Assembly (NCBI GenBank): GCA_963784685.1
Contig: CAWASF010000019.1
Span: forward strand, 730,933-794,932
DNA length: 64,000 nt
DNA from: an uncultured Actinomycetota bacterium
GTDB taxonomy: Bacteria; Actinomycetota; Actinomycetes; Mycobacteriales; Mycobacteriaceae
Reading direction: 5' to 3'
The translations under genes and the position numbers were made by a program. Shown in pieces: positions 10,089 through 22,836 of this stretch. Within the stretch, counting starts at the first letter, position 1. Each line of letters starts with the position of its first letter. The notes below the pieces were generated by a model, which searched no databases, was not told the origin of the DNA, and worked only from the letters and a program-made list of their open reading frames with translations.

Positions 10089-11828
10089 ATGCTGTCGCGC
10101 TTCGTCAAAATCCAGCTGGCGATCTTCACGATCGTCGGGACCATCGGCGTGATCGCGATGGTCCTCTTCTACATCCAGGCGCCGACCCTGCTGGGCATCG
10201 GTCGGATGACGGTCACGCTGGAGCTGCCGGCCACCGGCGGCCTGTACCGGTTTTCCAACGTAACCTACCGCGGGGTACAGCTCGGCAAGGTCACCTCGGT
10301 GGGGCTGACGCCGACCGGCGCGAAAGCCACGCTGTCGCTGAGCACTTCACCCAAGGTCCCCGCGAACCTCACAGCCAATGTGCTCAGTGTCTCCGCGGTG
10401 GGCGAACAGTACGTGGACTTGCAGCCCAAAACCGATTCGTGCCCCTGCCTCCACGACGGTTCCGTGATCGCCGCGCGCGACACGACGATTCCGCAGGCGG
10501 TCGGTCCGATGCTCGACCAGGTCAGTGCCCTGGTCAACAGCATCCCGAAGACCAAACTCGGCCAATTGCTCGACGAGACCTTCAAGGGCTTCAACGGAAC
10601 CGGCTACGACCTGGGGTCACTGTTCGACTCCACATCGACGATCTCGCGCGACGCGAGCGGAGTCGTCGATCGCACCCGGACCCTCACCGAAGACTCTGGG
10701 CCGCTATTGGATTCGCAAGCGCAAACCACCGATTCGATCAGAACGTGGGCCCGTAGCCTCGCCGGCATCACGGGCGTGGTTGCGAACGACGATTCCCGGG
10801 TTCGCACCCTGCTGCGGAACGGTCCCGAGGCCGCGAACGAAGCGTCCCGGCTTCTCGAACAAGTCAAACCGACACTGCCTGTGTTGCTTGCCAACCTGAC
10901 TACCATCGGGCAGATCGGCGTCACGTACCATCCGTCGCTGGAACAGTTGCTGGTGTTGCTGCCGTCGGCCGTCGCTATCGAGCAAGCTTCCGGCCCCCTG
11001 AACCATCCCGACGGTATGGCCCAGGGCGACTTCGCGCTCACGATCGACGATCCGCCCATTTGCACGGTCGGCTTCATGCCACCCAGCCAATGGCGATCGC
11101 CGGACGACATCAGCGACATCGACACACCGGACGGGTTGTATTGCAAACTCCCGCAGGATTCACCGCTTTCGGTTCGGGGCGCCCGCAACTATCCCTGCAT
11201 GGGTCACCCCGGCAAGCGCGCACCCACCGTCGAAATCTGCAACAGCGACCAGCCGTACATGCCGCTGGCAATGCGCCAGCATGTTCTCGGCCCCTCGCCA
11301 CTGGACCCGAACCTGCTCTCCCAGGGCATCCCGCCCGACGACCGGGTCAATTCCAACGACAGGATCTTCGGCCCGATCGAAGGAACGCCACTGCCGCCGG
11401 GGGCGGTGCCGCGCGGCACGCCGCCGGGGCCGCGAGGCGCATATGGACCACCCGGGCCGGGATACGCTGCGCCGCCGGTGCCCTCATCGGGACCCCGGCT
11501 CGCGCCCATGTCGCCGATGTCGGCCGACCTTCCGCCCATAGCGCCACTCGACGTGCCCTCGCCCGGGGAACTTCCCGCACCGCTCGCCGGGCCGCCGCCG
11601 CCCCCTCCGCCCGATGCCGCCCCACCCGACACGACCAATGATGGCGGGCCGCAGGCGGCTCCGAGCTCGTTCGGAGGTGACCCGACCAAGCCGCCGCCGT
11701 CGGTCGTGATCGCCCGATACGACCAGCGCACCGGTCGCTATGTCGGTCCGGACGGGAAGTTGTACCAGCAGTCGGATCTCGCGACCTCGAAGGCGCCCAA
11801 GACGTGGCGGGACATGCTTCCCACCTGA
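10089..11828 (+). CDS. mceF: Mce-family protein MceF
   Basis: The ATG directly follows the mceE TAG stop. TM segment plus Mce domain (MTVTLELPATGGLYRFSNVTYRGVQLGKV). The C-terminal region is long and Pro-rich. Confidence 0.9.
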   Translation: MLSRFVKIQLAIFTIVGTIGVIAMVLFYIQAPTLLGIGRMTVTLELPATGGLYRFSNVTYRGVQLGKVTSVGLTPTGAKATLSLSTSPKVPANLTANVLSVSAVGEQYVDLQPKTDSCPCLHDGSVIAARDTTIPQAVGPMLDQVSALVNSIPKTKLGQLLDETFKGFNGTGYDLGSLFDSTSTISRDASGVVDRTRTLTEDSGPLLDSQAQTTDSIRTWARSLAGITGVVANDDSRVRTLLRNGPEAANEASRLLEQVKPTLPVLLANLTTIGQIGVTYHPSLEQLLVLLPSAVAIEQASGPLNHPDGMAQGDFALTIDDPPICTVGFMPPSQWRSPDDISDIDTPDGLYCKLPQDSPLSVRGARNYPCMGHPGKRAPTVEICNSDQPYMPLAMRQHVLGPSPLDPNLLSQGIPPDDRVNSNDRIFGPIEGTPLPPGAVPRGTPPGPRGAYGPPGPGYAAPPVPSSGPRLAPMSPMSADLPPIAPLDVPSPGELPAPLAGPPPPPPPDAAPPDTTNDGGPQAAPSSFGGDPTKPPPSVVIARYDQRTGRYVGPDGKLYQQSDLATSKAPKTWRDMLPT

Positions 11829-12109
11829 CCACATGAACGCGGAGCACATGTGATGCCGCGGCGGGTTGTCATCGAGATCGACGGTGGGGCGAAGAAGTTC
11901 GAGTGCGCTGCACGCTGCCGTCGATTTCCGCGTAAGGACTAATGATTCACGTCCGCGCCAGTCACATCTGCCCCAGCTATCGCCGGGCCGAGCCGGTACA
12001 CGGTCTGCCCGCCTCGGAGTATCAAGCTAAGGCGCGCAAAGGATTTGACGCTCGGAGTTGGGCACAGCGAACACCCCGACCCCACGGAGGCTCGTGTGAC
12101 TGCGGCGTT

Positions 12110-12631
12110 CTAGGAGAGCTTGTCCAGGCGTAGCGGCATCGCGATGTCAAGCCACTGGTTTTGGCCGCAGGCACCGCTCGGGCCGACCGTCTTGTCCTTG
12201 CCGGCGAAGGTCGGCGACCCGAGACTGAATTCACCGTACGAGTTCACCGGATAGAAATAGAAGGTCTGCTGCCCGGTGAACGCGGTGCCGTCGGGGCACC
12301 GCTCCCAGTTCGGCACTTCGCGTTTGACGAACCACACGATGCCATCGTTCATGTACATCGGCGCGCTCCATCCCTGGTCGCTCGTCAGTGTGCCGTGGCA
12401 TTCCTGGAATGTGACGCACGACGAGGTGATGGTCCACGTTTGGTACACCGTCGCCTCGCCTTTGTACTGATCGTTGGTCTTGGCATAGTCGCCGATGGAC
12501 GTGGCGCGGTACGTCCCGTTGATGGCCACCTCTTCCTTGGTTGTTGCCCCGGCCGTGGACGCAGTGCCCAAACCGCCGATGACCGTGGCAGCCAACAGTG
12601 TTGCGGTGGTGAGTGTTCCAACTGAACGCAT
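12110..12631 (-). CDS. secreted protein of unknown function (signal peptide, several Cys)
   Basis: Internal ATG 12631 with GGAG 8 nt upstream was preferred over the TTG at 12649. The signal peptide is MRSVGTLTTATLLAATVIGGLGTASTAGA. The gene lies co-directionally downstream of the two Mas-like genes. Confidence 0.65.
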   Translation of the reverse strand: MRSVGTLTTATLLAATVIGGLGTASTAGATTKEEVAINGTYRATSIGDYAKTNDQYKGEATVYQTWTITSSCVTFQECHGTLTSDQGWSAPMYMNDGIVWFVKREVPNWERCPDGTAFTGQQTFYFYPVNSYGEFSLGSPTFAGKDKTVGPSGACGQNQWLDIAMPLRLDKLS

Positions 12632-12710
12632 CAGGAGCTCCGTTCTCAACCGATGACGTTACACCGCTTCGTCCGACCGGGTAACTGTTCGAAACGAAGA
12701 TTTGCCGCGC

Positions 12711-13352
12711 TCATCCGACCGGATCGAAATTCGCTATCAGCCAGGACCCTTTGACCTTCGTCAGCGTGACCACGACGCTGCTGTCGGCCTTCACGGGTTC
12801 TGGCTTCTGGGTGCTTGCCGTGGTCTGGTCGACGAACACCAGCACGACAGCCGAATCGCGACGCAAGTCCGAAAGGGCGGCCCGGATCACGTTGGCGGTC
12901 GCCGTCAGTTGCCCCTGCCGCGCTGCCGGCCCGACGATCTGGTCGGTGAATTTGCTGTAGTAGGCCAGAAAGTCGCCGGTGAGATGTGACTTGGCCTTGG
13001 CGAAATCACGATCCAAAGCCGTGTAGGAATACGACAACAAATCTACGGCGCCATCCGACGCCTCGTGTACCACCCGGTGTGCCGCCGCGTCGTCGATCTG
13101 CCGATCCGGAAGGTACAGAATCACGAACAGACCGGCAGCGACTCCCACCGCGGCGATAACCAATACGGTCGCGACTATCGAACGCCACCTAGCCAAACGC
13201 CGGCGGGTCCAGCGTCGGACCGCGGCCCGTCCGCCGGCGCGTGCCGAACCCTCGAAAGCCGGTGGTTCCCCGTCCTCGCCGGCGGGCGAGGCCTCCGTGC
13301 TCTCAATCGCCGTTTCGGTGCTGTCCAGCGACGAGTCATTCTCGACGGTCAT
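12711..13352 (-). CDS. Mce-associated membrane protein (Mas/Mam-like)
   Basis: Acidic N-terminus, a single TM segment, then the typical LLSYSYTALDRDFAKAKSHLTGDF ... VVLVFVDQTT ... KVKGSWLIANFDPV pattern of mycobacterial Mce-associated proteins. Confidence 0.8.
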   Translation of the reverse strand: MTVENDSSLDSTETAIESTEASPAGEDGEPPAFEGSARAGGRAAVRRWTRRRLARWRSIVATVLVIAAVGVAAGLFVILYLPDRQIDDAAAHRVVHEASDGAVDLLSYSYTALDRDFAKAKSHLTGDFLAYYSKFTDQIVGPAARQGQLTATANVIRAALSDLRRDSAVVLVFVDQTTASTQKPEPVKADSSVVVTLTKVKGSWLIANFDPVG

Positions 13353-14020
13353 TGCAGGAAATCAACTTTCGACATCTTGAACTGCCCGCCGTCACGGTCG
13401 AGATTGACGCTGAGCCGCCACACCGCCGGTGGCCGTTTCGTGTTATCGGCATTGGTCACATCGGATTTCGCCGCGACGAGCGCGACTGCCGAGTTGTCGG
13501 TCAGCGACTCGACTGCGACGGCTTCCACCGTGCCCTTGCTGACGACCTTTGAGGCCTCGGCCTGTTCGGCCATAACAGTTGATTGCGCTTGCATTTGGGC
13601 CTTCAGCGGGCCCGTGCACGCGTCGATGAGGCGCTGGATGTCCTCTTTAGCGTGCTGGGCGTCCATCGACATCAGCGCCGTGACCCCAAGGCGTGCGGCC
13701 GCGGCGAACTCCGCCGCGAGTTGCCGGTTGTGCGTGATGGTGTAGTGCTGCCACACCATGTAGCCGCTCGCGCCGAGCGAGGCGCAGGCGAGCACGATCG
13801 CCGCGCCAACAGCCGCCGCTTTCCGCCAAGGGGCGCGGAGCCACCGCGACCGCGGCCGCGACGACTTTGTGGCGGGCGGCCGGTCAGCGCCAAGCGCGGC
13901 GCCTTCGTCGTTCGCGTCCCCGGTTTTCGCCGCCTGGCGCAGCTTTGCCACACGTGCCCGGGCCGCCTCGACGCGCGCTTCCGCGCGGGCGACCTCCTCT
14001 TCTGCCTCCGCTGCCGACAT
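13349..14020 (-). CDS. Mce-associated membrane protein (Mas-like), coiled-coil N-terminus
   Basis: ATG 14020 (MSAAEAEEEVARAE...). A single TM segment and a C-terminal domain with architecture similar to the next gene. ATGA overlap with that gene at 13349-13352. Confidence 0.7.
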   Translation of the reverse strand: MSAAEAEEEVARAEARVEAARARVAKLRQAAKTGDANDEGAALGADRPPATKSSRPRSRWLRAPWRKAAAVGAAIVLACASLGASGYMVWQHYTITHNRQLAAEFAAAARLGVTALMSMDAQHAKEDIQRLIDACTGPLKAQMQAQSTVMAEQAEASKVVSKGTVEAVAVESLTDNSAVALVAAKSDVTNADNTKRPPAVWRLSVNLDRDGGQFKMSKVDFLQ

Positions 14021-14240
14021 TGGCTCCGGATCGTGCACGGAGAAGCAGCTTATCACTCCCAATCACGGCTACCGCTGTCATCGGACGAGCGTCCCTGCAA
14101 CCGTTAACATGCGGAGATACTCGTTCGCCGGCCAACCGGGTGCGGGCCGTTCGGGGCCGTTCGGTGGCCGAGGGCTGCCTGGCTCACCTCACCTTCTCCA
14201 ACCAGGAGAATTTTCTTTTCAGGTGTGGCAAAGTAATCGG

Positions 14241-14642
14241 GTGCGATCCATCGTGGCACTGGTTGCCGCGTTGCTCGGGGCCAGCGTGCTGGCGGCGCCG
14301 CCCGCGTTGGCCGGCCCGACCGTGTGCGACTACCCCGCCTGCACCCCGGGCATCATGCCGCATCAGGTCCTCGGCGCGCCGTGTGACAACACCACCTATT
14401 ACGCCTTCGGGACCGCGGACTATTACGTCTCCTTCGCCTCAGAGCCCGGACGGCTGATGTTCTGCGGCTCGCCGAGGCGATATCAGCCGCGATGGTTCCG
14501 GTCGCCGCCGATGGCGGGAATCAAGGACGAGGGCTCCGACTGCCACCAGTACCAGAACTACGTCGCGCAGGCGCCCGATGGCCTGTTCCTGGTCTGCATC
14601 GCCACCGAAGGCCATACGATCTGGGTCCGGGGCGACACCTAA
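14241..14642 (+). CDS. small secreted Cys-rich protein, unknown function
   Basis: GTG 14241 (alternative GTG 14223). Signal peptide VRSIVALVAALLGASVLAAPPALA. Six Cys in the mature part. The long upstream part of ORF 13869-14642 is antisense to the Mas gene. Confidence 0.55.
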   Translation: MRSIVALVAALLGASVLAAPPALAGPTVCDYPACTPGIMPHQVLGAPCDNTTYYAFGTADYYVSFASEPGRLMFCGSPRRYQPRWFRSPPMAGIKDEGSDCHQYQNYVAQAPDGLFLVCIATEGHTIWVRGDT

Positions 14643-15217
14643 CCCCCGTCGAAGAGCCGATGGGTAATTCGTAGCAGTTGGGCACGCAGTGTGTCGTCGT
14701 CGATGTCGGCCACCAACGGGTGCAGCACCCCGACCGCGATAGCGCCCGACAGCATCGCCGCCGACACCCGGGCGTCCTCGGCGGCGTCGTCGACCAGCAC
14801 GCCGTAGAGCCGCTGTATGAACTGCTGGAATGGGGCGTGCTCGGCCAGCAGCCGGACGATGACGGGATCGAACTGCAGGGTGCTCGCCGCACCGCGACGC
14901 TCGACGGCAAGATCGATCACCCGGTCGAGCAGGACGCGGCGTGCCAGGGTTCGGTGGTCGTGCGCCTCGGCTGCCTCCAGCGCCTCCTCGAGGCCCCCGA
15001 GTTCGCGCTCGGTGAGCGCGATGACGATCTGCTCCTTGGTTTTGAACTGGTGGTAGACGGCCGCCTTGGTGACTCCGACGGCATCCGCGATCATCTGCAG
15101 CGAGGTTCCGCCGACACCGTGCTCGGCGATCAACTCCAACGCGGCGTTCAGGATGCGTGTCTGAGCGGCGCTGCGGGTGATGAAGCGAAACCGGCTCCGG
15201 GTTTGGGGCGCGACCAC
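14639..15217 (-). CDS. TetR-family transcriptional regulator
   Basis: N-terminal HTH ALELIAEHGVGGTSLQMIADAVGVTKAAVYHQFKTKEQI. GTG start at 15217. Divergent from the membrane operon. Confidence 0.9.
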   Translation of the reverse strand: MVAPQTRSRFRFITRSAAQTRILNAALELIAEHGVGGTSLQMIADAVGVTKAAVYHQFKTKEQIVIALTERELGGLEEALEAAEAHDHRTLARRVLLDRVIDLAVERRGAASTLQFDPVIVRLLAEHAPFQQFIQRLYGVLVDDAAEDARVSAAMLSGAIAVGVLHPLVADIDDDTLRAQLLRITHRLFDGG

Positions 15218-15227
15218 ACCGAGAGCC

Positions 15228-15267
15228 TAGCCGATCGGCTATTGACTGTTGGGTAGCCGATCGGCTA
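15228..15267. promoter_or_regulatory. two copies of the perfect 14-bp palindrome TAGCCGATCGGCTA (candidate TetR operators)
   Basis: Copies at 15228-15241 and 15254-15267, 26 bp centre to centre. They lie in the 106-bp divergent region between TetR (start 15217) and the membrane operon (ATG 15324). A half-site TAGCCG recurs at 15279-15284. Confidence 0.6.
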
Positions 15268-15323
15268 GCTTCGCTCACTAGCCGGGCTCAGCTGATGATC
15301 CCGCGCGCCGGAAGGAGTCCCCG

Positions 15324-16103
15324 ATGTCCGACATGGGCGAGAGCGAAGGCGCGGGATTCCCGCGAGTTGCGTCGCGGCGGATCGACGGTGAGCTCATCCT
15401 TTTCTGGACATTGCCTGCGGCGGTGATCATTTGGATCGGCGCGTTCTTGCTGTTCCCGGGCTTCACTCCGCCCATGTCGCCCACGATGTCAGCCGACCAG
15501 GTCGCCGCGTTCTACCGCGATCAGGCGAACCTCCCGCGCATCCGCTGCAGCATGATCTTGTTCAACTGGTTCGGCGTGTGCCTCGTGCCGATCCTGATCC
15601 TGATGGTGATGCAGATCCGCCGGATGGCTCATCGCACGCCGATCTTCTCCTACTGCATGCTCGGCTGCATCGCCGGCGGACCGACGCTGTTCCTCGTCGC
15701 CGACATCTGCTGGCTGCTGGCCGCCTTCCGCCCGGAACGCAATCCCGAGTTGACCCAGTTGCTCAACGATTTCGCGTGGATCACGTTCACCACCGTCGTG
15801 CCCTTCCTCATCGGGCAAAGCGTGATCCTGGCCCTGGCGATCTACTTCGACGACCCCGCGAACCCGGTATTGCCTCGCTGGGTAGCGCATTTCAATCTTC
15901 TCGTCGCCGCCGCGATGGTGCCCGCGGCGTTCGTCGGGCTGGCCTTGACCGGCCCGCTGGCGTGGGACGGAACGTTGTCGTTCTGGCTGAAGAACATCGC
16001 CATCGCCGTCTGGATCGTGGTGATGGGCGTCGTTTTGGGCCGGGTCATTCATCGCGAGCGCGCCGAACACCGCCCGGACATCGAAGAACCGGTCGCCGTA
16101 TGA
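15324..16103 (+). CDS. 6-TM integral membrane protein, unknown family (paralog 1)
   Basis: ATG preceded by GGAAGGAG. About six hydrophobic spans. Shares motifs with the next gene: RPERNPEL/RPGRDPQL, DFAW/DFAF, FLIG, LPRW/FPKW, LAWDG/LAWNG. Confidence 0.75.
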   Translation: MSDMGESEGAGFPRVASRRIDGELILFWTLPAAVIIWIGAFLLFPGFTPPMSPTMSADQVAAFYRDQANLPRIRCSMILFNWFGVCLVPILILMVMQIRRMAHRTPIFSYCMLGCIAGGPTLFLVADICWLLAAFRPERNPELTQLLNDFAWITFTTVVPFLIGQSVILALAIYFDDPANPVLPRWVAHFNLLVAAAMVPAAFVGLALTGPLAWDGTLSFWLKNIAIAVWIVVMGVVLGRVIHRERAEHRPDIEEPVAV

Positions 16104-16852
16104 GCGTCCTGGTGGCACGGACGAATCGGCACAACCCGAAGCGCGAGCTGTGGTTGGCCTGGTGGACGCTCGTCGTCTTCTACAACTTCTTCTTTCTGGT
16201 GTTCTTCGTGATCACCCGCGTTCAGCCCCCGCCGAGCCCCGCCTGGGACACTCAGAGGGTCGTGCAGTGGTTCCACGACAACCGCTTTGGGCTTCTCGCG
16301 GGGTTCGCCATCATGTTCGTCATCACCGCCATGACCACGATGAGCAACGCCCTCATCGCCTATTCGATGCGGCGCATGTCGGTCAGCCGTGCGTTCGCTT
16401 ATTCGTACCTGATCCTGTATTCGCTCAGCGCGATTCCCGGCATGCAGCTGATGTGCATCGCGCTGACGGTGGGTGCCCTGCGACCCGGCCGCGACCCACA
16501 GCTGATCAGTTGGATCTACGACTTCGCCTTCTTGTCGTTCGTCGGCACGATGGGAGTGTTCCTGATCGGCTCGCTGGTGTGGATGCTCGCGATTCTCCTC
16601 GACAAGAACCAAGTGTTCCCAAAGTGGTTCGGCTATCTCAACCTCTGCAACGCGCTGACCGAGATCGTGGTGTCGCCCGCGTGGATCTTTCGGCGGGGCG
16701 TGTTGGCCTGGAATGGCCAGATCGCGTGGTGGCTCGACATGGTGGTGTTCGGCATCTACACCGGCGTTTTCATCTTCCTGCTCAGGAGGATGATCCAACG
16801 CGAGGACCTCGGAACCGGGCCGCTGCCCGAGCTTGTCGGGGCCGCGCGATGA
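16100..16852 (+). CDS. 6-TM integral membrane protein, unknown family (paralog 2)
   Basis: ATGA overlap at 16100-16103. Tandem paralog of the previous gene. The longer ORF 15431-16852 is an out-of-frame extension over paralog 1. Confidence 0.75.
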   Translation: MSVLVARTNRHNPKRELWLAWWTLVVFYNFFFLVFFVITRVQPPPSPAWDTQRVVQWFHDNRFGLLAGFAIMFVITAMTTMSNALIAYSMRRMSVSRAFAYSYLILYSLSAIPGMQLMCIALTVGALRPGRDPQLISWIYDFAFLSFVGTMGVFLIGSLVWMLAILLDKNQVFPKWFGYLNLCNALTEIVVSPAWIFRRGVLAWNGQIAWWLDMVVFGIYTGVFIFLLRRMIQREDLGTGPLPELVGAAR

Positions 16853-17436
16853 CGGACGTCGCCGAGGTGCGGGATGCCAGCAAGCCCGCCACGTTCATAC
16901 CCGGGCAACCGGACATGTGGGCGTTCGTGCTATTCGAAACCCTAATTTTCACATGCTATTTCGGTTTCTATCTGTTCGACCGCGCGCAAAACCCCGGGGT
17001 CTTCCTGCGAGCCCAGGCCCAGTTGGATCTACGGATCGGCGTTTTCAACACCCTCGTCCTGCTGCTGAGTTCCTGGTCGGTGGCGCGCTGCGTCCAATCG
17101 GCCCGCGCCGGCGCCTACCGACCCGCGTTGAAGGACGCCTTCCTCACCGGGTTCTTTGGTGTGGTGTTCATGGTGTCCAAGGTTTTCGAGTGGGCCACGC
17201 AGATCCGCCTGGGAAACGGTTTCTCCAGCAACGAGTTCTATACCTATTACTACTTTCTCACCGGAATCCACTTCGTCCACCTGCTGATCGGCTTCGTCGT
17301 CCTCGGTGTCGCCATTCACCAACTGCGGAGCCCGGCGAGACGATCACAGGAGCTCGTCGAAACGTGCGCCACGTACTGGCACACCGTGGACTTCCTCTGG
17401 GTGCTCATCTTCGCACTGCTCTACGTGGTGAGGTGA
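16849..17436 (+). CDS. cytochrome oxidase subunit III-family protein (CyoC/NorE-like, 195 aa, about 5 TM)
   Basis: ATGA overlap at 16849-16852. Its size, TM pattern and stretches such as FYTYYYFLTGIHFVHLLIG and TYWHTVDFLWVLIF resemble short COX III family members. Confidence 0.75.
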   Translation: MTDVAEVRDASKPATFIPGQPDMWAFVLFETLIFTCYFGFYLFDRAQNPGVFLRAQAQLDLRIGVFNTLVLLLSSWSVARCVQSARAGAYRPALKDAFLTGFFGVVFMVSKVFEWATQIRLGNGFSSNEFYTYYYFLTGIHFVHLLIGFVVLGVAIHQLRSPARRSQELVETCATYWHTVDFLWVLIFALLYVVR

Positions 17437-17439
17437 TCG

Positions 17440-17724
17440 GTGATCAGATTCAACAAGAGGCTGCTGGTCGTTTGGGTGGTGCTGGCATCGCTCACGCTGT
17501 CGTATCTCTGGATCGACCACTCCGTCGGTTCCTCGTTGCGGGCCAGCGCGGTCGTCACATCGGCCGTCATCGTGATCGCAGTCGTCAAGGTGCGCATCAT
17601 CTTTCGGGAGTTCATGGAAGTCAGGCAGGCTCCCGCCCTGCTGTGCCGCCTGACGGACGCGTGGGTGATACTCATCGCCGTGAGCCTGCTGGGGTGCTAC
17701 TTCACCGGCATGGCGATGCGGTAG
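17440..17724 (+). CDS. small 3-TM protein, prokaryotic COX IV / CyoD / NorF-like
   Basis: GTG 3 nt after the previous stop. 94 aa. The N-terminus IRFNKRLLVVWVVLASLTLSYLW is typical of small oxidase subunit IV-like proteins that follow subunit III genes. Confidence 0.6.
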   Translation: MIRFNKRLLVVWVVLASLTLSYLWIDHSVGSSLRASAVVTSAVIVIAVVKVRIIFREFMEVRQAPALLCRLTDAWVILIAVSLLGCYFTGMAMR

Positions 17725-17746: not shown

Positions 17747-19021
17747 TTAATCTTTCGGCGTGAAGGTGAGGTGGAGCTCGCTGAGCCCGCGGAGAATGTA
17801 CGTCGGCTCGTAGGTGTATCGGCGATCGTCGGCCGGCCCGTGTTTGACCTCGTCGATCTTGATGTCGGCCATCCGGTCCAGGATGCGTTCGATGGAAACC
17901 CGGCCCTCCACCCTGGCCAACGGTCCACCCGGGCACGAGTGCACGCCGCGGGCGAAGGCCATGTGCTCGCGAACGTTCTTACGGTCGAGGTCGAACTCGT
18001 GCGGATTCTCGAAGCGGCGCGGGTCGCGATTGGCCGCGCCCGGTAGGACCATGACCACGGTGCCGGGCGCTATTTCGACGCCGCCCACCGTGGTGGCCCT
18101 GCGGGCCAGCCTCGAGTCGCATTTGACGGGGCTGTCCATCCGCAGCGATTCCTCGATGAACCCCGGAATCAGGCTGCGGTCGTCGCGCAGCCGTTGTTGG
18201 ATGTCGGGCCGGTCGCCCAGCACCTGCAGCGCGGCGCTGAGCAGCTTGGCCGTGGTTTCCTGCCCCGCCGCGAAAAGGAAGGTCGCCGACCGAACCACCT
18301 CGATGACCTCGGGCGTCGATCCGTCCGGGTACTTCGCGGTGGCCAGGGAGGTCAAGACGTCGCCGCGCGGTTCGCGGCGGCGGTCCTCGATATAGGAGCA
18401 GAACGTCTCGTCGAGCCACTCCAGCGGGTTGACGCCGATCGACTTGTGATCAAGGGCTCCGACCCGACCCGGTTTGTCGGCACCCAAGACCACGCGAAAC
18501 TCCTTATGGTCCTCCTCCGGAACGCCGAGCAGGTCGGCGATCACCAACGTGGCGAAGGGCTTTGAGTATTCGCTGATGAACTCGCACTCGCCGTTGACCA
18601 GAAACTCGTCGAGCTGGCGGTCGGCCAGGCGCCACATGAACTCCTCGTTCTGCTTCAGCCGGCTGGGCGTCAGCAGTCGGCTCAGCACCGAGCGGGCACG
18701 GGTGTGGTCCGGCGGGTCCATGGTGACCATGTGCTCGAACATCGGAAAATAGCTGCGGTGCTCGTCGATCTGGGCGCTGATGTCGTCGCCCTCGGGCTGG
18801 AACGGCAGCGGGGGGAACGGCCCGCCGAGCGCGACGATGTTCGAGAAGGTGTCGGGGTCCTTGTAGACCTCGGTGGCTTCGTCATAGCCGGTGACGGCGA
18901 CGACCCCGTGATGCGGTAGCCGCAGCACGGGGTTTTGACTGCGCAGGTAGTCGAAGTACGGATGCGGGTCGGGCACCATGGACTGATCGGTGAAGAAGTC
19001 GATCGTTTCGTAGTTGCTCAT
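17747..19021 (-). CDS. cytochrome P450 monooxygenase
   Basis: Heme-thiolate loop FARGVHSCPGGPLA, I-helix AAGQETT, ExxR (EESLR). 424 aa. Confidence 0.95.
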   Translation of the reverse strand: MSNYETIDFFTDQSMVPDPHPYFDYLRSQNPVLRLPHHGVVAVTGYDEATEVYKDPDTFSNIVALGGPFPPLPFQPEGDDISAQIDEHRSYFPMFEHMVTMDPPDHTRARSVLSRLLTPSRLKQNEEFMWRLADRQLDEFLVNGECEFISEYSKPFATLVIADLLGVPEEDHKEFRVVLGADKPGRVGALDHKSIGVNPLEWLDETFCSYIEDRRREPRGDVLTSLATAKYPDGSTPEVIEVVRSATFLFAAGQETTAKLLSAALQVLGDRPDIQQRLRDDRSLIPGFIEESLRMDSPVKCDSRLARRATTVGGVEIAPGTVVMVLPGAANRDPRRFENPHEFDLDRKNVREHMAFARGVHSCPGGPLARVEGRVSIERILDRMADIKIDEVKHGPADDRRYTYEPTYILRGLSELHLTFTPKD

Positions 19022-19249: not shown

Positions 19250-19960
19250 ATGACATCTTCTTCCGGAGCCCGCAGGATCGGGGCGCCGGACGCGAAGAAT
19301 CGCGGCCTGCTGCTCGACGCGGCCGAGCAGTTGATGCTCGAAGAGGGCTACGCGGCGGTGACGTCGCGCCGCCTCGCGCACAAGGCGGGGCTCAAACCCC
19401 AGTTGGTGCACTACTACTTCCGCACGATGGAGGAATTGTTCCTCGAGGTTTTCCGTCGCCGCGCCGAGGAGGGCCTCGAGATGCAGGCGCGGGCGCTGCA
19501 ATCGCCCCAGCCGTTGTGGGCGCTCTGGCGCTTCGGCACCGATCCCGCGTTCACCCGGATTTCGATGGAGTTCATGGCGCTGGCCAATCACCGCAAGGAG
19601 CTGCGAGCCGAAATCGCTTACTACGCGGAGCGTTTCCGTGATGAACAACGCCGGGCGGTGACGGCTGCCTTGCTGCGCTACGGCGTGGAGAGCGAGGACG
19701 TGCCGCCGGTGGTGTGGACCGTACTCATGACCAGCCTGTCGCGATTTCTGGTGCTCGAACAGGCGGTGGGTATTTCTGGCGGGCATGCCGAAACCATGGA
19801 ACTGGTCGAAAGTCATCTGCGCCGCCTGGAGGGCGAGCCGCAGCGCATTGCGGATATACCGCCCTCCTGGGTGGTTCACCAGTTCCGTATCGAACAGAGC
19901 ACGCCCCTCGGCCCGTCCTTGGACACGACGACGGTCCCGTCCACCGACAGGTCGCAGTGA
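19250..19960 (+). CDS. TetR-family transcriptional regulator
   Basis: HTH region LLDAAEQLMLEEGYAAVTSRRLAHKAGLKPQLVHYYFRTMEELF. Divergent from the P450 gene. The C-terminal ~28 codons overlap the convergent gene. Confidence 0.88.
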   Translation: MTSSSGARRIGAPDAKNRGLLLDAAEQLMLEEGYAAVTSRRLAHKAGLKPQLVHYYFRTMEELFLEVFRRRAEEGLEMQARALQSPQPLWALWRFGTDPAFTRISMEFMALANHRKELRAEIAYYAERFRDEQRRAVTAALLRYGVESEDVPPVVWTVLMTSLSRFLVLEQAVGISGGHAETMELVESHLRRLEGEPQRIADIPPSWVVHQFRIEQSTPLGPSLDTTTVPSTDRSQ

Positions 19961-20313
19961 AACTGCGGTGTCCCTGGTTCCGCGCCGGTGCTCACCGAGA
20001 CCATTGCGTACACTTCCGGTTTCGTCAGATTCAGTTCGAAGCTCCACGGCTTGCCCGGGGCGATGTCGGCGTTGACGTGCGGCGTGAACCGGTACGGATC
20101 GTGGCTGTAGTCGGAGAACATGGCCGGCTCTTGATCGAGGTAGTAGATGTCGGCGTAGATCGGATTCTGCGCGGTGACGGTGTACTTGACGTGATGCATG
20201 ACCGGGTCATCGGCATGTGCCCGTCCGGCGCTCACGAGCAGCCCGGTCCCGCCCATCAGCACCGCGACTAACATCGCCGAGCCCGCGTGCAGCGCTCTGT
20301 GCACCGTGGTCAT
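19876..20313 (-). CDS. MmpS-like secreted/membrane-anchored protein
   Basis: ATG 20313 overlaps the echA stop (ATGA at 20310-20313). Signal/anchor segment SAMLVAVLMGGTGLLVSAGRAHA. MmpS-like pattern VKYTVTA..ADIYY...PWSFE...C.LSVDG....G..C. Confidence 0.6.
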   Translation of the reverse strand: MTTVHRALHAGSAMLVAVLMGGTGLLVSAGRAHADDPVMHHVKYTVTAQNPIYADIYYLDQEPAMFSDYSHDPYRFTPHVNADIAPGKPWSFELNLTKPEVYAMVSVSTGAEPGTPQFHCDLSVDGTVVVSKDGPRGVLCSIRNW

Positions 20314-21056
20314 GTCGCTCCTCCGGCTTCCGGGCGCGGACTGGCGGTGCGGTTCATTACCCGCTCTGCGGCGCGCCAGTGTGCGTCGGCAACCCACAGC
20401 CGTGCAAAGGATGCTATCGCCTCGTCGGGCGAAACCCCGCTGATTACGCGCTTTATTTCGGTCGCCGGGTGGCGGGCAAGCGACCGCGCGACCGAGCGCC
20501 AGCCCTCCTCGAATGACGAGCGCGGGAACACCAGATCCACCAGGCCGATCCGCACGGCCTCGACCGCGTTGAGCGCGGTTCCGCTGCCCGCCAGCAGAAG
20601 CGCCCTGCCCTTTCCGACGAGCGCGGCCAGCCGCTCGGCGCCGCCCCAGGCCGGCATGATTTCCAGATCCACTTGATTGAAGGCGATCTTGATGTCGTCG
20701 GCAGCCACCCGAATGTCAGCAGCGACAGCGACTTCCGCGCCGCCGCCGAAGGCGTGGCCATTGAGGGCGGCGATCACCGGAGCCGGGAAGCCGGCGAGCT
20801 GATCGCAGATCGACCGCATCCGCTTCGCCATGGCCGAGGCGTCCTCCTCGGTCCGCAGCGCGCTCAGCTCCTTCAGGTCGCCACCCGAGACGAACGCCCG
20901 ATCGCCGGCGCCTTTGATGACCAGGGTTCGAGCCCCCGCCGCCTCGTCGAGCGCCTTTTCCAGCTGCCCCATGGTGTCTAATGAGATTGCATTGCGCGCA
21001 TGCGGACGATCGATGGTGAGCACGGCCAGCCCGTCATCGAATTCCAGGTCCACCAT
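20310..21056 (-). CDS. enoyl-CoA hydratase/isomerase (crotonase family)
   Basis: Crotonase fold signatures: VLTIDRPHARNAIS, GAGDRAFVSGGDLKEL, ALNGHAFGGGAEVAVAADIRVA. Confidence 0.9.
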   Translation of the reverse strand: MVDLEFDDGLAVLTIDRPHARNAISLDTMGQLEKALDEAAGARTLVIKGAGDRAFVSGGDLKELSALRTEEDASAMAKRMRSICDQLAGFPAPVIAALNGHAFGGGAEVAVAADIRVAADDIKIAFNQVDLEIMPAWGGAERLAALVGKGRALLLAGSGTALNAVEAVRIGLVDLVFPRSSFEEGWRSVARSLARHPATEIKRVISGVSPDEAIASFARLWVADAHWRAAERVMNRTASPRPEAGGAT

Positions 21057-21151
21057 GCGTCATTGCTCCCGATATTGGCATTCTCCTTCACGGAGAATAA
21101 CATCATCGCCGCAGGCCCAGAAGTTTCCGCCCTCAGGATCGAGGTGACCCA

Positions 21152-21574
21152 GTGCGGAACCGAATCGCACCGGCGGCCGCCGCGGCGCTCGCGGTTGCCT
21201 GCCTCGGGGCCTGCACCCCACGGCCGCAGACTCAGGCTTCCGGCACGGCAACCGTGACGGTCGACGGGCACGACACGAAATTCCAGATCGTCAGCTGCAC
21301 CCAGGTGGCGTGGATTCGGACGATCGCCATTGGCAGCGACGCCGCCGGCGCCAAGGTTGTCGTCGATCAGCGCAAAGATCCGATCACCGCCGAATCCGTG
21401 CGGATCCAAAACCTGGGTGGCTTCACCGGCATGTACTCGCAGGGTGACGGGGGCGATGCCACCCTGAGCCACAGCGGCGGCAGATTCACGATCACCGGAA
21501 CCGCCAACGGCTACAAGGTCGACACGCCGGGGGAACCGGCCAGCGCCACCTTCAAGGTCATCGCCGAGTGCTGA
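21152..21574 (+). CDS. LpqH-family (19-kDa antigen-like) lipoprotein
   Basis: GTG start. Lipobox LGAC. Mature part (VTVDGHDTKFQIVSCT ... RFTITGTANGYKVDTPGEPASATFKVIAEC) parallels the LpqH family layout, including the C-terminal Cys. Confidence 0.8.
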   Translation: MRNRIAPAAAAALAVACLGACTPRPQTQASGTATVTVDGHDTKFQIVSCTQVAWIRTIAIGSDAAGAKVVVDQRKDPITAESVRIQNLGGFTGMYSQGDGGDATLSHSGGRFTITGTANGYKVDTPGEPASATFKVIAEC

Positions 21575-21608
21575 CCGCGTCCTTGCACGTTGCGATCGGG
21601 CACCCGTT

Positions 21609-21623
21609 GAGAATAGTATTCTC
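21609..21623. promoter_or_regulatory. AT-rich 15-bp palindrome GAGAATAGTATTCTC upstream of the amidohydrolase operon
   Basis: Perfect 7-bp arms around a central G, ending 23 bp upstream of ATG 21646. It stands out against the GC-rich background. Confidence 0.35.
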
Positions 21624-21645
21624 GTAAATCGCGAAGGAGGATTTC

Positions 21646-22836
21646 ATGGGGCAGTTGTCGCATCGGGAAGACGTCCCGTTTCCGCTCTTTGACGCGGACA
21701 ACCATCTCTACGAGCCGCCGGAGGCGCTGACCAAGTACCTGCCCAAGGAGTACAAGGACTTCATCCAGTACGTGCAGATCAACGGGCGCACCAAGATCGC
21801 GATCCGCGGCCACATCAGCAACTACATCCCCAACCCGACCTTCGAGGTGGTCGCCCGGCCGGGTGCCTGGGAGGAGTACTTCAAGTACGGCAACCCGGAC
21901 GGCAAGACCAAGCGCGAGCTGTTCGGCGAGCCGATGCGCGCGATCCCGGCGTTCTTCGAGCCGGGCGCGCGCCTGGAGAAGATGAACGAGCTGGGTCTGG
22001 ACCGCACCCTGATGTTCCCGACGCTGGCCAGCCTGCTCGAGGAACGGCTGCGCGACGACCCGGTCGCCATCCACGTCCTGATCCACGCGCTGAACCAGTG
22101 GCTCGACGAGGTCTGGGGCTTCAACTACCAGAACCGGATCTTCACCACCCCGGTCATCACCCTGCCGATCGTCGAGAAGGCGATCGAGGAGCTGGAGTGG
22201 GCGGTCAAGCGCGGTGCCCGCTGCATCCTGGTCCGCCCGGCTCCCGTCCCCGGCTTCCGCGGCCCGCGGTCGTTCGCGGTGCCCGAGTTCGACCCGTTCT
22301 GGGAGCGCGTCGTCGAGCACGACGTGCTGGTCGGCATGCACTCCAGCGACAGCGGCTACTCCCGGTACACCTCCGAATGGGACGGCGCCGAACAGGAGAT
22401 GCTGCCGTTCCAAACCAATGCGATGGGCATCCTCAACGAGTGGCGGCCCATCCAGGACGCGGTGGGTTCATGGGTGATCCACGGCGCGCTCTACCGTCAT
22501 CCCAAGCTGAAGGTGGCCATCGTCGAGGCCGGCTCGAAGTGGATGGTCCCGCTGCTGGACGGCCTTGCCGAGGTCTTCCGGAAGGCCCCGGAGGTCTTCC
22601 CGAGCGACCCGGTCGAGATGGTCAAGAACCGCATCCACGTGAGCCCGTTCTTCGAGGATGGCATCGACGATCTGGTCAACCTCGTCGGCGTGGATCAGGT
22701 GCTGTACGGCTCGGACTGGCCGCACCCGGAAGGGCTGGCTGAGCCGACCTTCTATATCAACGCGCTGGCGCACCTGCCCGTCGAGGACCAGGCAAAGATC
22801 ATGGGCGGCAACCTCGGTCGGCTCGTCACGGTGTGA
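21646..22836 (+). CDS. amidohydrolase-2 (ACMSD/LigW-like metal-dependent hydrolase/decarboxylase) family protein
   Basis: 396 aa. N-terminal FDADNHLYEPPEA and C-terminal VLYGSDWPHPEG are typical of this family. SD GAAGGAGG lies upstream. Confidence 0.85.
   Translation: MGQLSHREDVPFPLFDADNHLYEPPEALTKYLPKEYKDFIQYVQINGRTKIAIRGHISNYIPNPTFEVVARPGAWEEYFKYGNPDGKTKRELFGEPMRAIPAFFEPGARLEKMNELGLDRTLMFPTLASLLEERLRDDPVAIHVLIHALNQWLDEVWGFNYQNRIFTTPVITLPIVEKAIEELEWAVKRGARCILVRPAPVPGFRGPRSFAVPEFDPFWERVVEHDVLVGMHSSDSGYSRYTSEWDGAEQEMLPFQTNAMGILNEWRPIQDAVGSWVIHGALYRHPKLKVAIVEAGSKWMVPLLDGLAEVFRKAPEVFPSDPVEMVKNRIHVSPFFEDGIDDLVNLVGVDQVLYGSDWPHPEGLAEPTFYINALAHLPVEDQAKIMGGNLGRLVTV

What the first reader, a model, noticed from the sequence alone, without database searches (positions are those of the whole stretch)
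14639..17724. TetR-guarded four-gene membrane operon: orphan COX III/COX IV-like subunits preceded by two paralogous 6-TM proteins, no catalytic oxidase subunits
Seen in the sequence:
- Four + strand genes are packed with ATGA overlaps (16100-16103, 16849-16852) and a 3-nt gap before GTG 17440.
- Gene 3 (195 aa, about 5 TM) looks like a short cytochrome oxidase subunit III (CyoC/NorE type).
- Gene 4 (94 aa, 3 TM) looks like the small subunit IV (CyoD/QoxD/NorF type).
- Genes 1 and 2 (259 and 250 aa, about 6 TM each) are tandem paralogs. They share RP(E/G)R(N/D)P(E/Q)L, DFA(W/F), FLIG, (L/F)P(R/K)W and LAW(D/N)G.
- Genes 1 and 2 each contain only 2-4 His, and these are not conserved between the paralogs. 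They therefore cannot be heme-copper subunit I or II.

Inference: the gene order mimics cyoABCD/qoxABCD, with the catalytic subunits II and I replaced by an unknown duplicated membrane protein. The operon sits under a divergent TetR regulator and convergent to a P450 gene. I do not recall any described function for such a module.
Basis: partly seen in the sequence, partly recalled or inferred. Interest (0 to 1): 0.7.

Follow-up and report, generated by a model that had tools for sequence, protein, structure and literature searches.

The report
Orphan oxidase-subunit membrane operon
A repressor-controlled operon pairs look-alikes of two minor respiratory-oxidase subunits with two copies of an unstudied six-helix membrane protein and no catalytic oxidase genes; the same combination recurs across bacterial phyla inside gene clusters for breaking down oily compounds, and nobody has described what it does.

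Summary
TetR (14639-15217, -) is divergent from four translationally coupled + strand genes, g1 to g4.

- **g3 and g4:** g3 passes Pfam COX3 and g4 passes COX4_pro. g3 is of the NorE type (38% identical to a real NorE), not CyoC or CtaE.
- **g1 and g2:** they are paralogous 6-TM proteins of a large unannotated family. Only 7 of 81 relatives weakly hit DUF4386. A confident AlphaFold model (pLDDT 91) has no PDB match.
- **Regulation:** two perfect TAGCCGATCGGCTA palindromes lie between TetR and g1. They are conserved in all 80 Mycobacterium loci examined.
- **Conserved core:** the unit is a triad, g1-family + COX3-like + COX4-like. It occurs in Mycobacterium, Rhodococcus, Pseudonocardia, Streptomyces, Novosphingobium, Sphingobium, Diaphorobacter and Azoarcus. 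It is present in 46 of 58 decidable metagenome loci.
- **No oxidase:** no haem-copper subunit I or II was found in the window or any fetched locus.
- **Neighbours:** SDRs, P450s, aldehyde dehydrogenases, flavin monooxygenases, beta-oxidation enzymes, Mce operons and TonB receptors.

The cyoABCD mimicry is largely incidental, because most versions carry one g1-type gene.

Most likely this is an inducible, non-redox inner-membrane complex that handles hydrophobic substrates. The function is inferred, not shown.

The parts
14639..15217 (-). TetR-family regulator, 192 aa, transcribed divergently from the operon
   Evidence: Pfam TetR_N scores 60.2 bits. A homologue is present in 80 of 80 Mycobacterium loci. 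dN/dS is 0.08-0.28.
15228..15241 (.). Operator-like perfect palindrome TAGCCGATCGGCTA, copy 1
   Evidence: these are the only two matches in the 64-kb window at up to 2 mismatches. The motif is conserved in the intergenic region of all 80 loci.
15254..15267 (.). Operator-like perfect palindrome TAGCCGATCGGCTA, copy 2, starting 26 bp after copy 1
   Evidence: Two copies occur in all 31 loci whose TetR is at least 75% identical to this one.
15324..16103 (+). g1: 259-aa 6-TM protein of an unannotated family distantly related to DUF4386
   Evidence: No Pfam or NCBIfam hit. The family has 1572 clusters at 50% identity. The AlphaFold model has pLDDT 91.4 and no PDB fold match. Orthologous to L083 gene a, 43% identity.
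16100..16852 (+). g2: 250-aa paralog of g1; its start overlaps the g1 stop (ATGA)
   Evidence: Reciprocal best match to L083 gene b. In this frame the ORF stays open upstream to 15431, so the start at 16100 is inferred from the overlap and from homology.
16849..17436 (+). g3: 195-aa 5-TM COX3-family protein of the NorE type
   Evidence: Pfam COX3 scores 49.6 bits, which is far below the NCBIfam CtaE, CyoC and QoxC equivalog cut-offs. 38% identical to Thioclava NorE. NorE-type residues N67, K111 and E171 are conserved in 43 triad-linked homologues.
17440..17724 (+). g4: 94-aa 3-TM COX4_pro-family protein with a GTG start
   Evidence: Pfam COX4_pro scores 40.7 bits. Three hydrophobic segments. 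A GAGG lies 8 nt upstream of the start. Present in 78 of 80 loci.
17747..19021 (-). Convergent neighbour: cytochrome P450, a CYP150A6 orthologue. A frequent neighbour, not an obligatory part.
   Evidence: PDB 6dcd matches at E 8.7e-248. Adjacent in 68 of 80 loci. P450s were found beside 6 of 38 unrelated triad loci.

Best explanation
The locus encodes a TetR-repressed, ligand-inducible operon for a hetero-oligomeric inner-membrane complex that carries no redox cofactor. Its proposed core is a g1/g2 heterodimer of 6 + 6 TM helices, which would be a homodimer in the many species that have a single g1-type gene. A NorE-like 5-TM COX3 protein and a 3-TM COX4_pro protein are proposed to dock onto this core, in the way subunits III and IV dock onto subunit I of an oxidase. 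The module belongs to gene islands for oxidative catabolism of hydrophobic compounds such as terpenoids, sterols, alkanes and lipids. It most likely handles such a substrate at the membrane: taking it over from an envelope importer (Mce in actinobacteria, TonB-dependent receptors in Gram-negatives), or passing it between the bilayer and soluble oxygenases and dehydrogenases.

**Shown:** gene structure and translational coupling; a conserved operator; family memberships; cross-phylum conservation of the triad; absence of catalytic oxidase genes; the catabolic neighbourhood.

**Inferred:** physical complex formation; the dimeric core; derepression by a lipophilic ligand; the substrate-handling role.
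For: **Operon and regulation**
- ATGA overlaps and a 3-nt gap couple the four genes.
- Two perfect palindromes lie between TetR and g1. They occur nowhere else in the window. All 80 Mycobacterium loci keep one or two copies in that position, with only one match elsewhere in about 1 Mb.
- All genes are under purifying selection.

**Complex formation**
- The g1-type stop overlaps the COX3-like start by 4 nt in Diaphorobacter, Novosphingobium, Pseudonocardia and Rhodococcus.
- The triad is present in 46 of 58 decidable metagenome loci.
- At least 10 of 18 plasmid records with a g1-type hit carry a COX3-like gene beside or near it in the annotation I read. Hit coordinates place a COX3-like match within about 3 kb in four more.
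- The two-paralog form exists in Mycobacterium and also on a 55% GC contig that carries TonB-receptor and FixGHIS-type genes. Orthology is reciprocal-best, g1 to gene a and g2 to gene b.

**Not a redox enzyme**
- No His, Cys or Met column is conserved in 81 diverse family members. The near-invariant residues are Pro, Arg, Asp, Trp and Gly.
- hhalign against CyoB and CyoA gives probability below 1%.
- No CyoB, CyoA or NorB homologue was found in 1.84 Mb of related loci, apart from the positive control.

**Catabolic and uptake context**
- Neighbours of 38 dereplicated triads include SDR 7, P450 6, aldehyde dehydrogenase 4, luciferase-like monooxygenase 4, TonB Plug 4, LEH/SnoaL 4, CoA-transferase 3, plus enoyl-CoA hydratase, thiolase and acyl-CoA dehydrogenase.
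- Mce operons abut the module in this window and in two distinct Rhodococcus plasmids.
- TonB-dependent receptors abut it in L083, L088 and L094.
- g1-family genes without COX3 sit with TetR (10), APH (7), FAD oxidoreductases (6), acyl-CoA dehydrogenases (5) and enoyl-CoA hydratases (4).
Against: - There is no experimental datum for any member. No paper in the searchable library mentions DUF4386.
- I found no fusion protein that would prove a g1-COX3 contact. The long family members I checked are frameshift artefacts.
- I could not run a multimer structure prediction.
- COX3-family proteins have no known transport role.
- The closest relative, NorE, has no defined function either, and it had no effect on heterologously expressed cNOR (PMC9976466).
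- Catabolic neighbourhoods are common on megaplasmids, and I computed no background enrichment statistic.
- Gene calling for the neighbour counts was crude, using ORF length and GC3.
- Conserved Arg and Asp residues in g1/g2 would fit an enzyme as well as a transporter.
Confidence: 0.42

Rival explanations
1. g1/g2 are integral-membrane enzymes, for example an isomerase, hydratase, hydrolase or cyclase that acts on a lipophilic intermediate and uses the conserved Asp and Arg residues. g3/g4 act as a stabilising scaffold.
For: Arg100, Arg136, Asp149, Asp176 and the PRW and GP(F/L)AW(N/D)G motifs are near-invariant across 81 members that are about 25-30% identical. g1-type genes are embedded among pathway enzymes such as P450, FAD oxidoreductase, hydroxylase with flavin reductase, SDR and enoyl-CoA hydratase. 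One member is fused to a roughly 450-aa soluble domain with a faint DUF1214 match.
Against: There is no similarity to any known enzyme fold or family. The conserved motifs lie mostly in loops on both membrane faces rather than forming an obvious single site; this is based on secondary structure only. Loci with up to five paralogs (L155) fit binding or transport proteins better than a single catalytic step.
Confidence: 0.2
2. g3/g4 are alternative, condition-specific subunit III/IV isoforms that plug into a respiratory haem-copper enzyme encoded elsewhere in the genome (aa3 oxidase, bo3 oxidase or NOR). g1/g2 are extra accessory subunits.
For: g3 keeps the hallmark COX3 residues: the TM1 acidic residue, the HxxH motif and WHxVDxxW. 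Its nearest relative, NorE, accompanies NorCB.
Against: The module was never next to subunit I or II in about 180 loci. In mycobacteria subunit IV of the aa3 oxidase is CtaF, not a COX4_pro protein, and they have no cyo or qox oxidase (my own knowledge of the families, not tested here). g3 scores far below the CtaE, CyoC and QoxC equivalog cut-offs. The tight coupling is to the g1 family, not to any oxidase gene. The genomic context is catabolic, not respiratory.
Confidence: 0.13
3. It is a stress or tolerance device: a TetR-controlled membrane module that protects against, or exports, toxic lipophilic compounds or NO.
For: A TetR gene divergent from membrane-protein genes is the classic layout of efflux and resistance loci. 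This TetR's best NCBIfam similarities include MtrR and AcrR. NorE-type proteins are linked to NO handling.
Against: There is no similarity to any transporter or efflux family. Mycobacterium loci carry no nor or nir genes. The neighbours are degradative enzymes and importers, not efflux components.
Confidence: 0.13
4. It is a decaying remnant of an oxidase operon, or a chance juxtaposition with no joint function.
For: The only support is the superficial resemblance of the gene order to cyoABCD.
Against: dN/dS is 0.1-0.3 for all four genes. The block is conserved in 80 of 80 loci. The triad recurs across phyla with overlapping stop and start codons. The operator is conserved.
Confidence: 0.02

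Closest known systems
NorE/NorF, accessory genes of the norCBQDEF nitric-oxide reductase clusters (NirO/NirP in Pseudomonas)
   Same: g3 is a 5-TM COX3-family protein, 38% identical over its full length to a NorE encoded in a norCBQDEF cluster. It shares residues that NorE has but CyoC and CtaE lack: N67, K111, K118, Y134 and E171. Both are followed by a small membrane-protein gene. Both lack a defined function (PMC9976466).
   Different: There are no norCB or nir genes nearby. g4 is a clear COX4_pro member (40.7 bits), whereas NorF is subthreshold (18.9 bits), and the two show no significant pairwise similarity. The coupled partner here is a DUF4386-like 6-TM protein, and the context is aerobic catabolism of hydrophobic compounds under a TetR.
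Subunits III and IV of quinol oxidases (CyoC/CyoD of cytochrome bo3, QoxC/QoxD of aa3-600)
   Same: Same Pfam families (COX3, COX4_pro), same 5-TM plus 3-TM architecture, same adjacent gene order III then IV (PDB matches 6kob and 1fft).
   Different: There is no subunit I or II anywhere nearby. g3 scores 68.7 against a CyoC cut-off of 223.75, and 52.7 against a QoxC cut-off of 239.9. g4 against E. coli CyoD is not significant in pairwise BLAST. g1/g2 are unrelated to CyoA and CyoB.
DUF4386 (PF14329), an uncharacterised membrane-protein family
   Same: 7 of 81 diverse relatives of g1/g2 hit this model, best E 9.8e-8.
   Different: g1 and g2 themselves give no hit at E up to 1. DUF4386 has no known function and no paper in the library mentions it, so the relationship says nothing about function.
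Actinobacterial CtaE (subunit III of the aa3 oxidase in the bcc-aa3 supercomplex)
   Same: Best PDB sequence match for g3: 6adq chain G, E 4.5e-14, covering residues 27-195. Same 5-TM form.
   Different: 78.5 bits against the NCBIfam aa3_CtaE_Actin cut-off of 190. It lacks the NorE-type residues that g3 carries. The genuine ctaE sits with the cta and qcr genes (my own knowledge), not under a TetR beside DUF4386-like genes.

Membership tests
Haem-copper oxidase operon (cyoABCD / qoxABCD / ctaCDEF) | Catalytic subunit I (12-TM core with His ligands for haems and CuB) encoded in the operon | tested here: not met
   hhalign of the g1/g2 family profile against E. coli CyoB gives probability 0.1%. 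tblastn with CyoB and NorB finds nothing in the window or in about 180 related loci except the positive control. No His column is conserved.
Haem-copper oxidase operon (cyoABCD / qoxABCD / ctaCDEF) | Subunit II (2 TM plus cupredoxin domain) | tested here: not met
   hhalign against CyoA gives probability 0.4%. There are no CyoA tblastn hits.
Haem-copper oxidase operon (cyoABCD / qoxABCD / ctaCDEF) | Subunit III of family COX3 (PF00510) | tested here: met
   g3 scores 49.6 bits against a gathering score of 23.8. It is below every NCBIfam equivalog cut-off: CtaE 78.5 vs 190, CyoC 68.7 vs 223.75, QoxC 52.7 vs 239.9.
Haem-copper oxidase operon (cyoABCD / qoxABCD / ctaCDEF) | Subunit IV of family COX4_pro (PF03626) | tested here: met
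   g4 scores 40.7 bits against a gathering score of 28.9.
NorE/NorF accessory pair | NorE-type COX3 sequence | tested here: met
   38% identity, E 9e-40, over the full length to the NorE of a Thioclava norCBQDEF cluster. NorE-specific residues are shared.
NorE/NorF accessory pair | NorF-type small partner protein | tested here: inconclusive
   g4 against Thioclava NorF gives no significant alignment, E 0.13. NorF itself reaches only 18.9 bits on COX4_pro.
NorE/NorF accessory pair | Linkage to norCB (or nirS) denitrification genes | tested here: not met
   No NorB homologue was found in the window or in any triad locus. The neighbours are catabolic.
DUF4386 (PF14329) | Match to the Pfam model at its gathering score | tested here: not met
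   g1 and g2 give no hit at E up to 1. Only 7 of 81 relatives match at E up to 0.01.
TetR-family repressor with a divergent target operon | N-terminal TetR HTH domain | tested here: met
   TetR_N scores 60.2 bits.
TetR-family repressor with a divergent target operon | Palindromic operator in the shared promoter region | tested here: met
   Two perfect 14-bp palindromes are unique to the intergenic region and conserved in 80 of 80 loci. Actual binding was not tested.
TetR-family repressor with a divergent target operon | Ligand-dependent release from DNA | not testable with these tools
   This needs EMSA or ITC with candidate lipophilic ligands.

The most novel reading that the evidence does not exclude
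The g1-family + NorE-like + COX4-like triad is a previously unrecognised kind of membrane machine. In it, the accessory subunits III and IV of haem-copper oxidases have been co-opted by a non-redox 6-TM protein with a fold that has no solved homologue, to work on hydrophobic substrates at the membrane. If so, NorE-type COX3 proteins would be general-purpose membrane adaptors, for example lipid- or substrate-holding or proton-conducting modules. That would also explain the long-unclear role of NorE/NorF in denitrifiers.
Probability: 0.3. Interest if true: 0.8.

Novelty: new variant of a known kind. Interest (0 to 1): 0.62.

Why it matters
- **Oxidase subunit III.** This subunit is usually discussed only as a stabiliser of oxidase subunit I. 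A widespread, selected pairing of a COX3/COX4-like pair with an unrelated cofactor-free membrane protein would show that these subunits have a life outside respiration. It would also give a tractable system for asking what NorE-type proteins do, which remains unresolved.
- **The g1/g2 family.** It has at least 1572 clusters at 50% identity, no annotation and no solved structural relative. It sits in catabolic islands of environmentally and medically relevant bacteria: non-tuberculous mycobacteria, and Rhodococcus and sphingomonad degraders.
- **Substrate handling.** If the complex handles hydrophobic substrates downstream of Mce or TonB importers, it could fill a gap in how such compounds pass from the envelope to cytosolic oxygenases.

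Tried and rejected
- **Degenerate CyoB or CyoA.** I tested whether g1/g2 are degenerate halves of subunit I or II. hhalign probability was below 1%, so I rejected it.
- **Fold match for g1.** The second, from 81 diverse sequences, was good (pLDDT 91). Foldseek against the PDB gave only noise (best E 0.29, TM-score about 0.3).
- **Rosetta-stone fusions.** I looked for fusions of the g1 family with COX3. The 390-420 aa family members are frameshift artefacts with no COX3 Pfam hit.
- **PDB search with g4.** No match.
- **Literature.** DUF4386 returned no paper. PF03626 returned one irrelevant paper. Searches for NorE/NorF were mostly swamped by unrelated words. One paper says NorE and NorF do not affect heterologous cNOR expression. 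The CYP150 papers say nothing about this locus.
- **First metagenome scan.** A 14-sequence alignment was too divergent to yield search patterns. A 6-sequence alignment worked.
- **Promoter and terminator scan.** It found no sigma-70-like promoter and only one terminator-like site, inside g1, which is fewer than chance would give. This is uninformative for a mycobacterium.
- **Not done.** I did not use the third large homology search because the remaining questions would not have been settled by it. The genome-collection scan returned only Mycobacterium, its 80 best of 231 hits, so breadth came from plasmids and metagenomes instead.

Full report
**1. What is in the sequence**

The region holds a TetR-family gene on the minus strand (14639-15217, 192 aa). 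Four plus-strand genes run divergently from it:
- g1, 15324-16103, 259 aa
- g2, 16100-16852, 250 aa
- g3, 16849-17436, 195 aa
- g4, GTG 17440-17724, 94 aa

There are ATGA stop/start overlaps at 16100 and 16849. After the g3 stop there is a 3-nt gap, with a GAGG 8 nt upstream of the g4 GTG. A P450 gene (17747-19021, minus strand) converges on g4 with a 22-bp gap. The window contains only one copy of each gene type.

**2. Family assignments**

- **g3** passes Pfam COX3 (49.6 bits, gathering 23.8) and **g4** passes COX4_pro (40.7 bits, gathering 28.9).
- g3 is far below the NCBIfam equivalog cut-offs for CtaE, CyoC and QoxC.
- Its best PDB sequence matches are 5-TM subunits III: mycobacterial CtaE, QoxC and CyoC.
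- It is closer still to a bona fide NorE encoded in a Thioclava norCBQDEF cluster: 38% identity over the full length, E 9e-40.
- In an alignment of 43 homologues linked to g1-type genes, the canonical COX3 residues are invariant: the TM1 acidic residue, E114, H141/H144 and W177-H178-x-x-D181-x-x-W184. Residues that NorE has but CyoC and CtaE lack are also conserved: N67, K111, K118, Y134 and E171. So g3 is NorE-type.
- **g4** is a good COX4_pro member. It has no significant pairwise similarity to E. coli CyoD or to NorF. NorF itself is subthreshold on COX4_pro.
- **g1 and g2** have no Pfam or NCBIfam hit at E up to 1. They are paralogs: 33% identity over 155 aa, E 3e-19, and 27% over the full length. 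They carry 4 and 2 His respectively, none conserved.

**3. The g1/g2 family**

- A profile of both paralogs finds 1572 clusters at 50% identity with E up to 1e-3, and 995 with E up to 1e-10, among 1.84 billion representatives.
- Of 81 diverse members, 7 weakly hit DUF4386 and nothing else recurs. Database names are "hypothetical protein".
- Across the 81 members the near-invariant residues are Pro49, Pro50, Pro53, Arg100, Arg136, Asp149, Asp176, Pro184-Arg185-Trp186, Gly210 and Ala213-Trp214-x-Gly216. There is no His, Cys or Met among them. That argues against haem or copper binding.
- With this alignment AlphaFold gives a confident model: pLDDT 91.4, pTM 0.86, six long helices plus a short one at residues 57-65. 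Foldseek finds no PDB relative (best E 0.29, TM-score about 0.3).
- Profile comparison with E. coli CyoB and CyoA is null.

**4. Regulation**

The 106-bp TetR-g1 spacer holds two perfect 14-bp palindromes, TAGCCGATCGGCTA, at 15228-15241 and 15254-15267. They are the only matches in the 64-kb window at up to 2 mismatches. In all 80 orthologous Mycobacterium loci, one or two copies lie 47-127 bp upstream of g1. Only one match lies elsewhere in about 1 Mb. This is what a TetR operator looks like. Binding itself is inferred, not shown.

**5. Conservation within Mycobacterium**

The genome scan returned 231 relatives. The best 80 are all slow-growing Mycobacterium species or MAGs.
- TetR, g1 and g2 are present in 80 of 80 loci, g3 in 79 and g4 in 78. 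The gaps are contig ends.
- The CYP150A6-type P450 (PDB 6dcd, E 8.7e-248) is adjacent in 68 of 80. Several long contigs lack it, so it is not part of the obligatory unit.
- dN/dS against ten loci is 0.1-0.3 for all genes.

**6. Conservation beyond Mycobacterium: the key result**

On annotated plasmids and chromids, a g1-type gene is followed directly by "cytochrome c oxidase subunit 3" and "subunit IV family" genes in:
- Rhodococcus oxybenzonivorans and Rhodococcus sp. ZPP
- Pseudonocardia
- M. branderi
- Novosphingobium resinovorum
- Diaphorobacter

The stop and start codons often overlap by 4 nt. Related layouts:
- In Novosphingobium pentaromativorans the g1-type gene is followed by a COX3-family gene, with no subunit IV gene annotated.
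- In Sphingobium herbicidovorans the COX3/COX4 pair lies 3 kb away.
- In Azoarcus the order is COX3-COX4-g1. The third gene is recognised only by profile comparison (probability 99.4%).
- Of 18 plasmid records with a g1-type hit, 10 show a COX3-like gene beside or near it in the annotation I read. In 4 more, hit coordinates place a COX3-like match within about 3 kb.

In 80 metagenome loci retrieved with proteobacterial and actinobacterial single-copy members:
- 46 have a COX3-like gene within 1.5 kb, usually immediately downstream and followed by a COX4-like gene.
- 12 have none despite adequate flanks.
- 22 are cut by contig ends.

The two-paralog, four-gene form is not a mycobacterial peculiarity. 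A 55% GC contig with a TonB-dependent receptor and FixGHIS-type genes carries g1'-g2'-COX3-COX4-TetR. Orthology is reciprocal-best: g1 to gene a at 43% identity, g2 to gene b at 32%. The g1/g2 duplication is therefore old, or the module has moved horizontally.

**7. No oxidase**

tblastn with CyoB, CyoA and a cNorB found no homologue in the window or in any of the roughly 180 loci (1.84 Mb). The only hit was the Thioclava nor cluster used as positive control. CyoB did not detect that NorB, so very divergent subunit I proteins could in principle be missed. Pfam scans of 231 neighbouring proteins listed no COX1 or COX2 among the 25 most frequent families in either set.

**8. Neighbourhood**

- **Beside 38 dereplicated triads (136 neighbour proteins):** adh_short 7, P450 6, aldehyde dehydrogenase 4, luciferase-like monooxygenase 4, TonB Plug 4, LEH/SnoaL 4, CoA-transferase III 3, FAD_binding_2 3, plus enoyl-CoA hydratase, thiolase and acyl-CoA dehydrogenase.
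- **Beside g1-family genes without COX3 (95 neighbour proteins):** TetR 10, APH-type phosphotransferase 7, amine-oxidase-type FAD enzymes 6, acyl-CoA dehydrogenase 5, AveC-like 4, enoyl-CoA hydratase 4.
- **Mce operons** abut the module in this window (the MceF-like gene 10089-11828 and Mce-associated membrane proteins upstream) and in two different Rhodococcus plasmids, once upstream and once downstream.
- **TonB-dependent receptors** abut it in three Gram-negative loci.
- **NorE-like/COX4-like pairs without a g1-type gene** also exist in catabolic surroundings, as in Azospirillum.

Caveats: the gene calls for these counts were made with a simple ORF/GC3 heuristic, and I computed no background frequency.

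**9. Interpretation**

The shown facts are:
- a real, selected, TetR-linked operon;
- a conserved cross-phylum association of a novel 6-TM family with a NorE-type COX3 and a COX4_pro protein;
- no catalytic oxidase partner nearby and no conserved metal ligands in g1/g2;
- surroundings of hydrophobic-substrate oxidation and import genes.

From this I infer four things.
- The proteins form one inner-membrane complex. The support is translational coupling and co-inheritance.
- Its core is a g1-type dimer, heteromeric where the gene is duplicated.
- The TetR responds to a lipophilic ligand.
- The complex handles a hydrophobic substrate at the membrane rather than transferring electrons.

I put about 0.4 on this overall. 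That is higher for "non-redox complex in catabolic islands" and lower for the specific substrate-handling role. The rivals are a membrane enzyme (0.2), alternative subunits for an oxidase encoded elsewhere (0.13), a tolerance or efflux or NO device (0.13) and a remnant (0.02).

**10. Comparison with the known, and novelty**

The nearest described thing is the NorE/NorF pair. Its own function is unresolved, and NorE/NorF had no effect on heterologous cNOR (PMC9976466). The module fails the defining tests for an oxidase operon, since it has no subunit I or II. It also fails the linkage test for NorEF, since no norCB is present.

No paper in the searchable library mentions DUF4386, and I found no description of this gene combination. 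I file it as a new variant of a known kind: orphan subunit III/IV-like pairs, here with a new partner family and a new context. I give roughly 0.3 probability that it is in fact a new kind of membrane machine.

The "cyoABCD with I and II replaced" picture is a coincidence of the duplicated form rather than the organising principle.

Noticed in passing
window 14639-15217 and loci L001-L080: The TetR falls into two sequence classes across Mycobacterium loci. In 31 loci it is at least 75% identical to this one (mean 85%), and all of these carry two operator palindromes. In 49 loci it is about 63% identical, and 40 of these carry one palindrome. Identity of g1 and g2 is the same in both classes (about 77% and 74%). 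The regulator and operator seem to have diverged or been exchanged independently of the structural genes.
   Followed up: partly
window 17747-19021 (-): The convergent P450 is a close orthologue of M. marinum CYP150A6 (PDB 6dcd, E 8.7e-248). I found no substrate reported for CYP150A6. The related CYP150A5 hydroxylates beta-ionone (PMC6237146).
   Followed up: partly
window 10089-14062: The tail of an Mce operon lies directly upstream. It comprises an MceF-like protein with a long Pro-rich C-terminus (10089-11828) and two Mce-associated membrane proteins (12711-13352 and 13349-14062, minus strand, with overlapping ends). This arrangement is conserved in about 72 of 80 loci.
   Followed up: partly
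window about 14170-14642 (+), within ORF 13869-14642: A small Cys-rich protein lies between the Mce-associated genes and the TetR. It appears to be secreted, with a signal-peptide-like segment (VALVAALLGASVLAAPPALAGP). It is conserved in 73 of 80 loci. Its true start and its function were not examined.
   Followed up: no
window 16100 (g2 start); homologues P0125-P0240: Many database homologues of g2 are annotated as 270-280 aa. That implies a start about 90 nt upstream, overlapping g1. In this window the g2 frame is open back to 15431, so the ATG at 16100 is chosen from the ATGA overlap and from homology, not from ORF limits.
   Followed up: partly
L155 (metagenome contig Ga0075369_10001219), 3247-8722: Five g1-family paralogs lie within 5.5 kb with no COX3-like gene. 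Other loci (L164, L169, L170, L174, L143) have two copies. The family expands locally in some genomes.
   Followed up: no
L082 6001-8118 (protein P0319, 705 aa): This is a genuine fusion of an N-terminal g1-family domain (residues about 15-255) with a roughly 450-aa C-terminal soluble domain that gives a faint DUF1214 match. It sits next to a TetR and sulfotransferase genes.
   Followed up: partly
L098 5959-6841 (Azospirillum brasilense Sp7 plasmid p3): A NorE-like COX3 plus COX4_pro pair stands alone, with no g1-type gene and no nor genes. It is near CoA-transferase, SDR and acyl-CoA dehydrogenase genes. So the subunit III/IV-like pair is itself a mobile two-gene unit.
   Followed up: partly
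window 19250-22836: Downstream of the P450 lie a second TetR (19250-19960), an enoyl-CoA hydratase-like gene (20310-21056, minus strand) and a 396-aa ORF that I did not scan against any family library (21646-22836). The TetR and the hydratase-like gene travel with the locus in 67 and 57 of 80 genomes. This fits a lipid or hydrophobic-substrate catabolic island.
   Followed up: no
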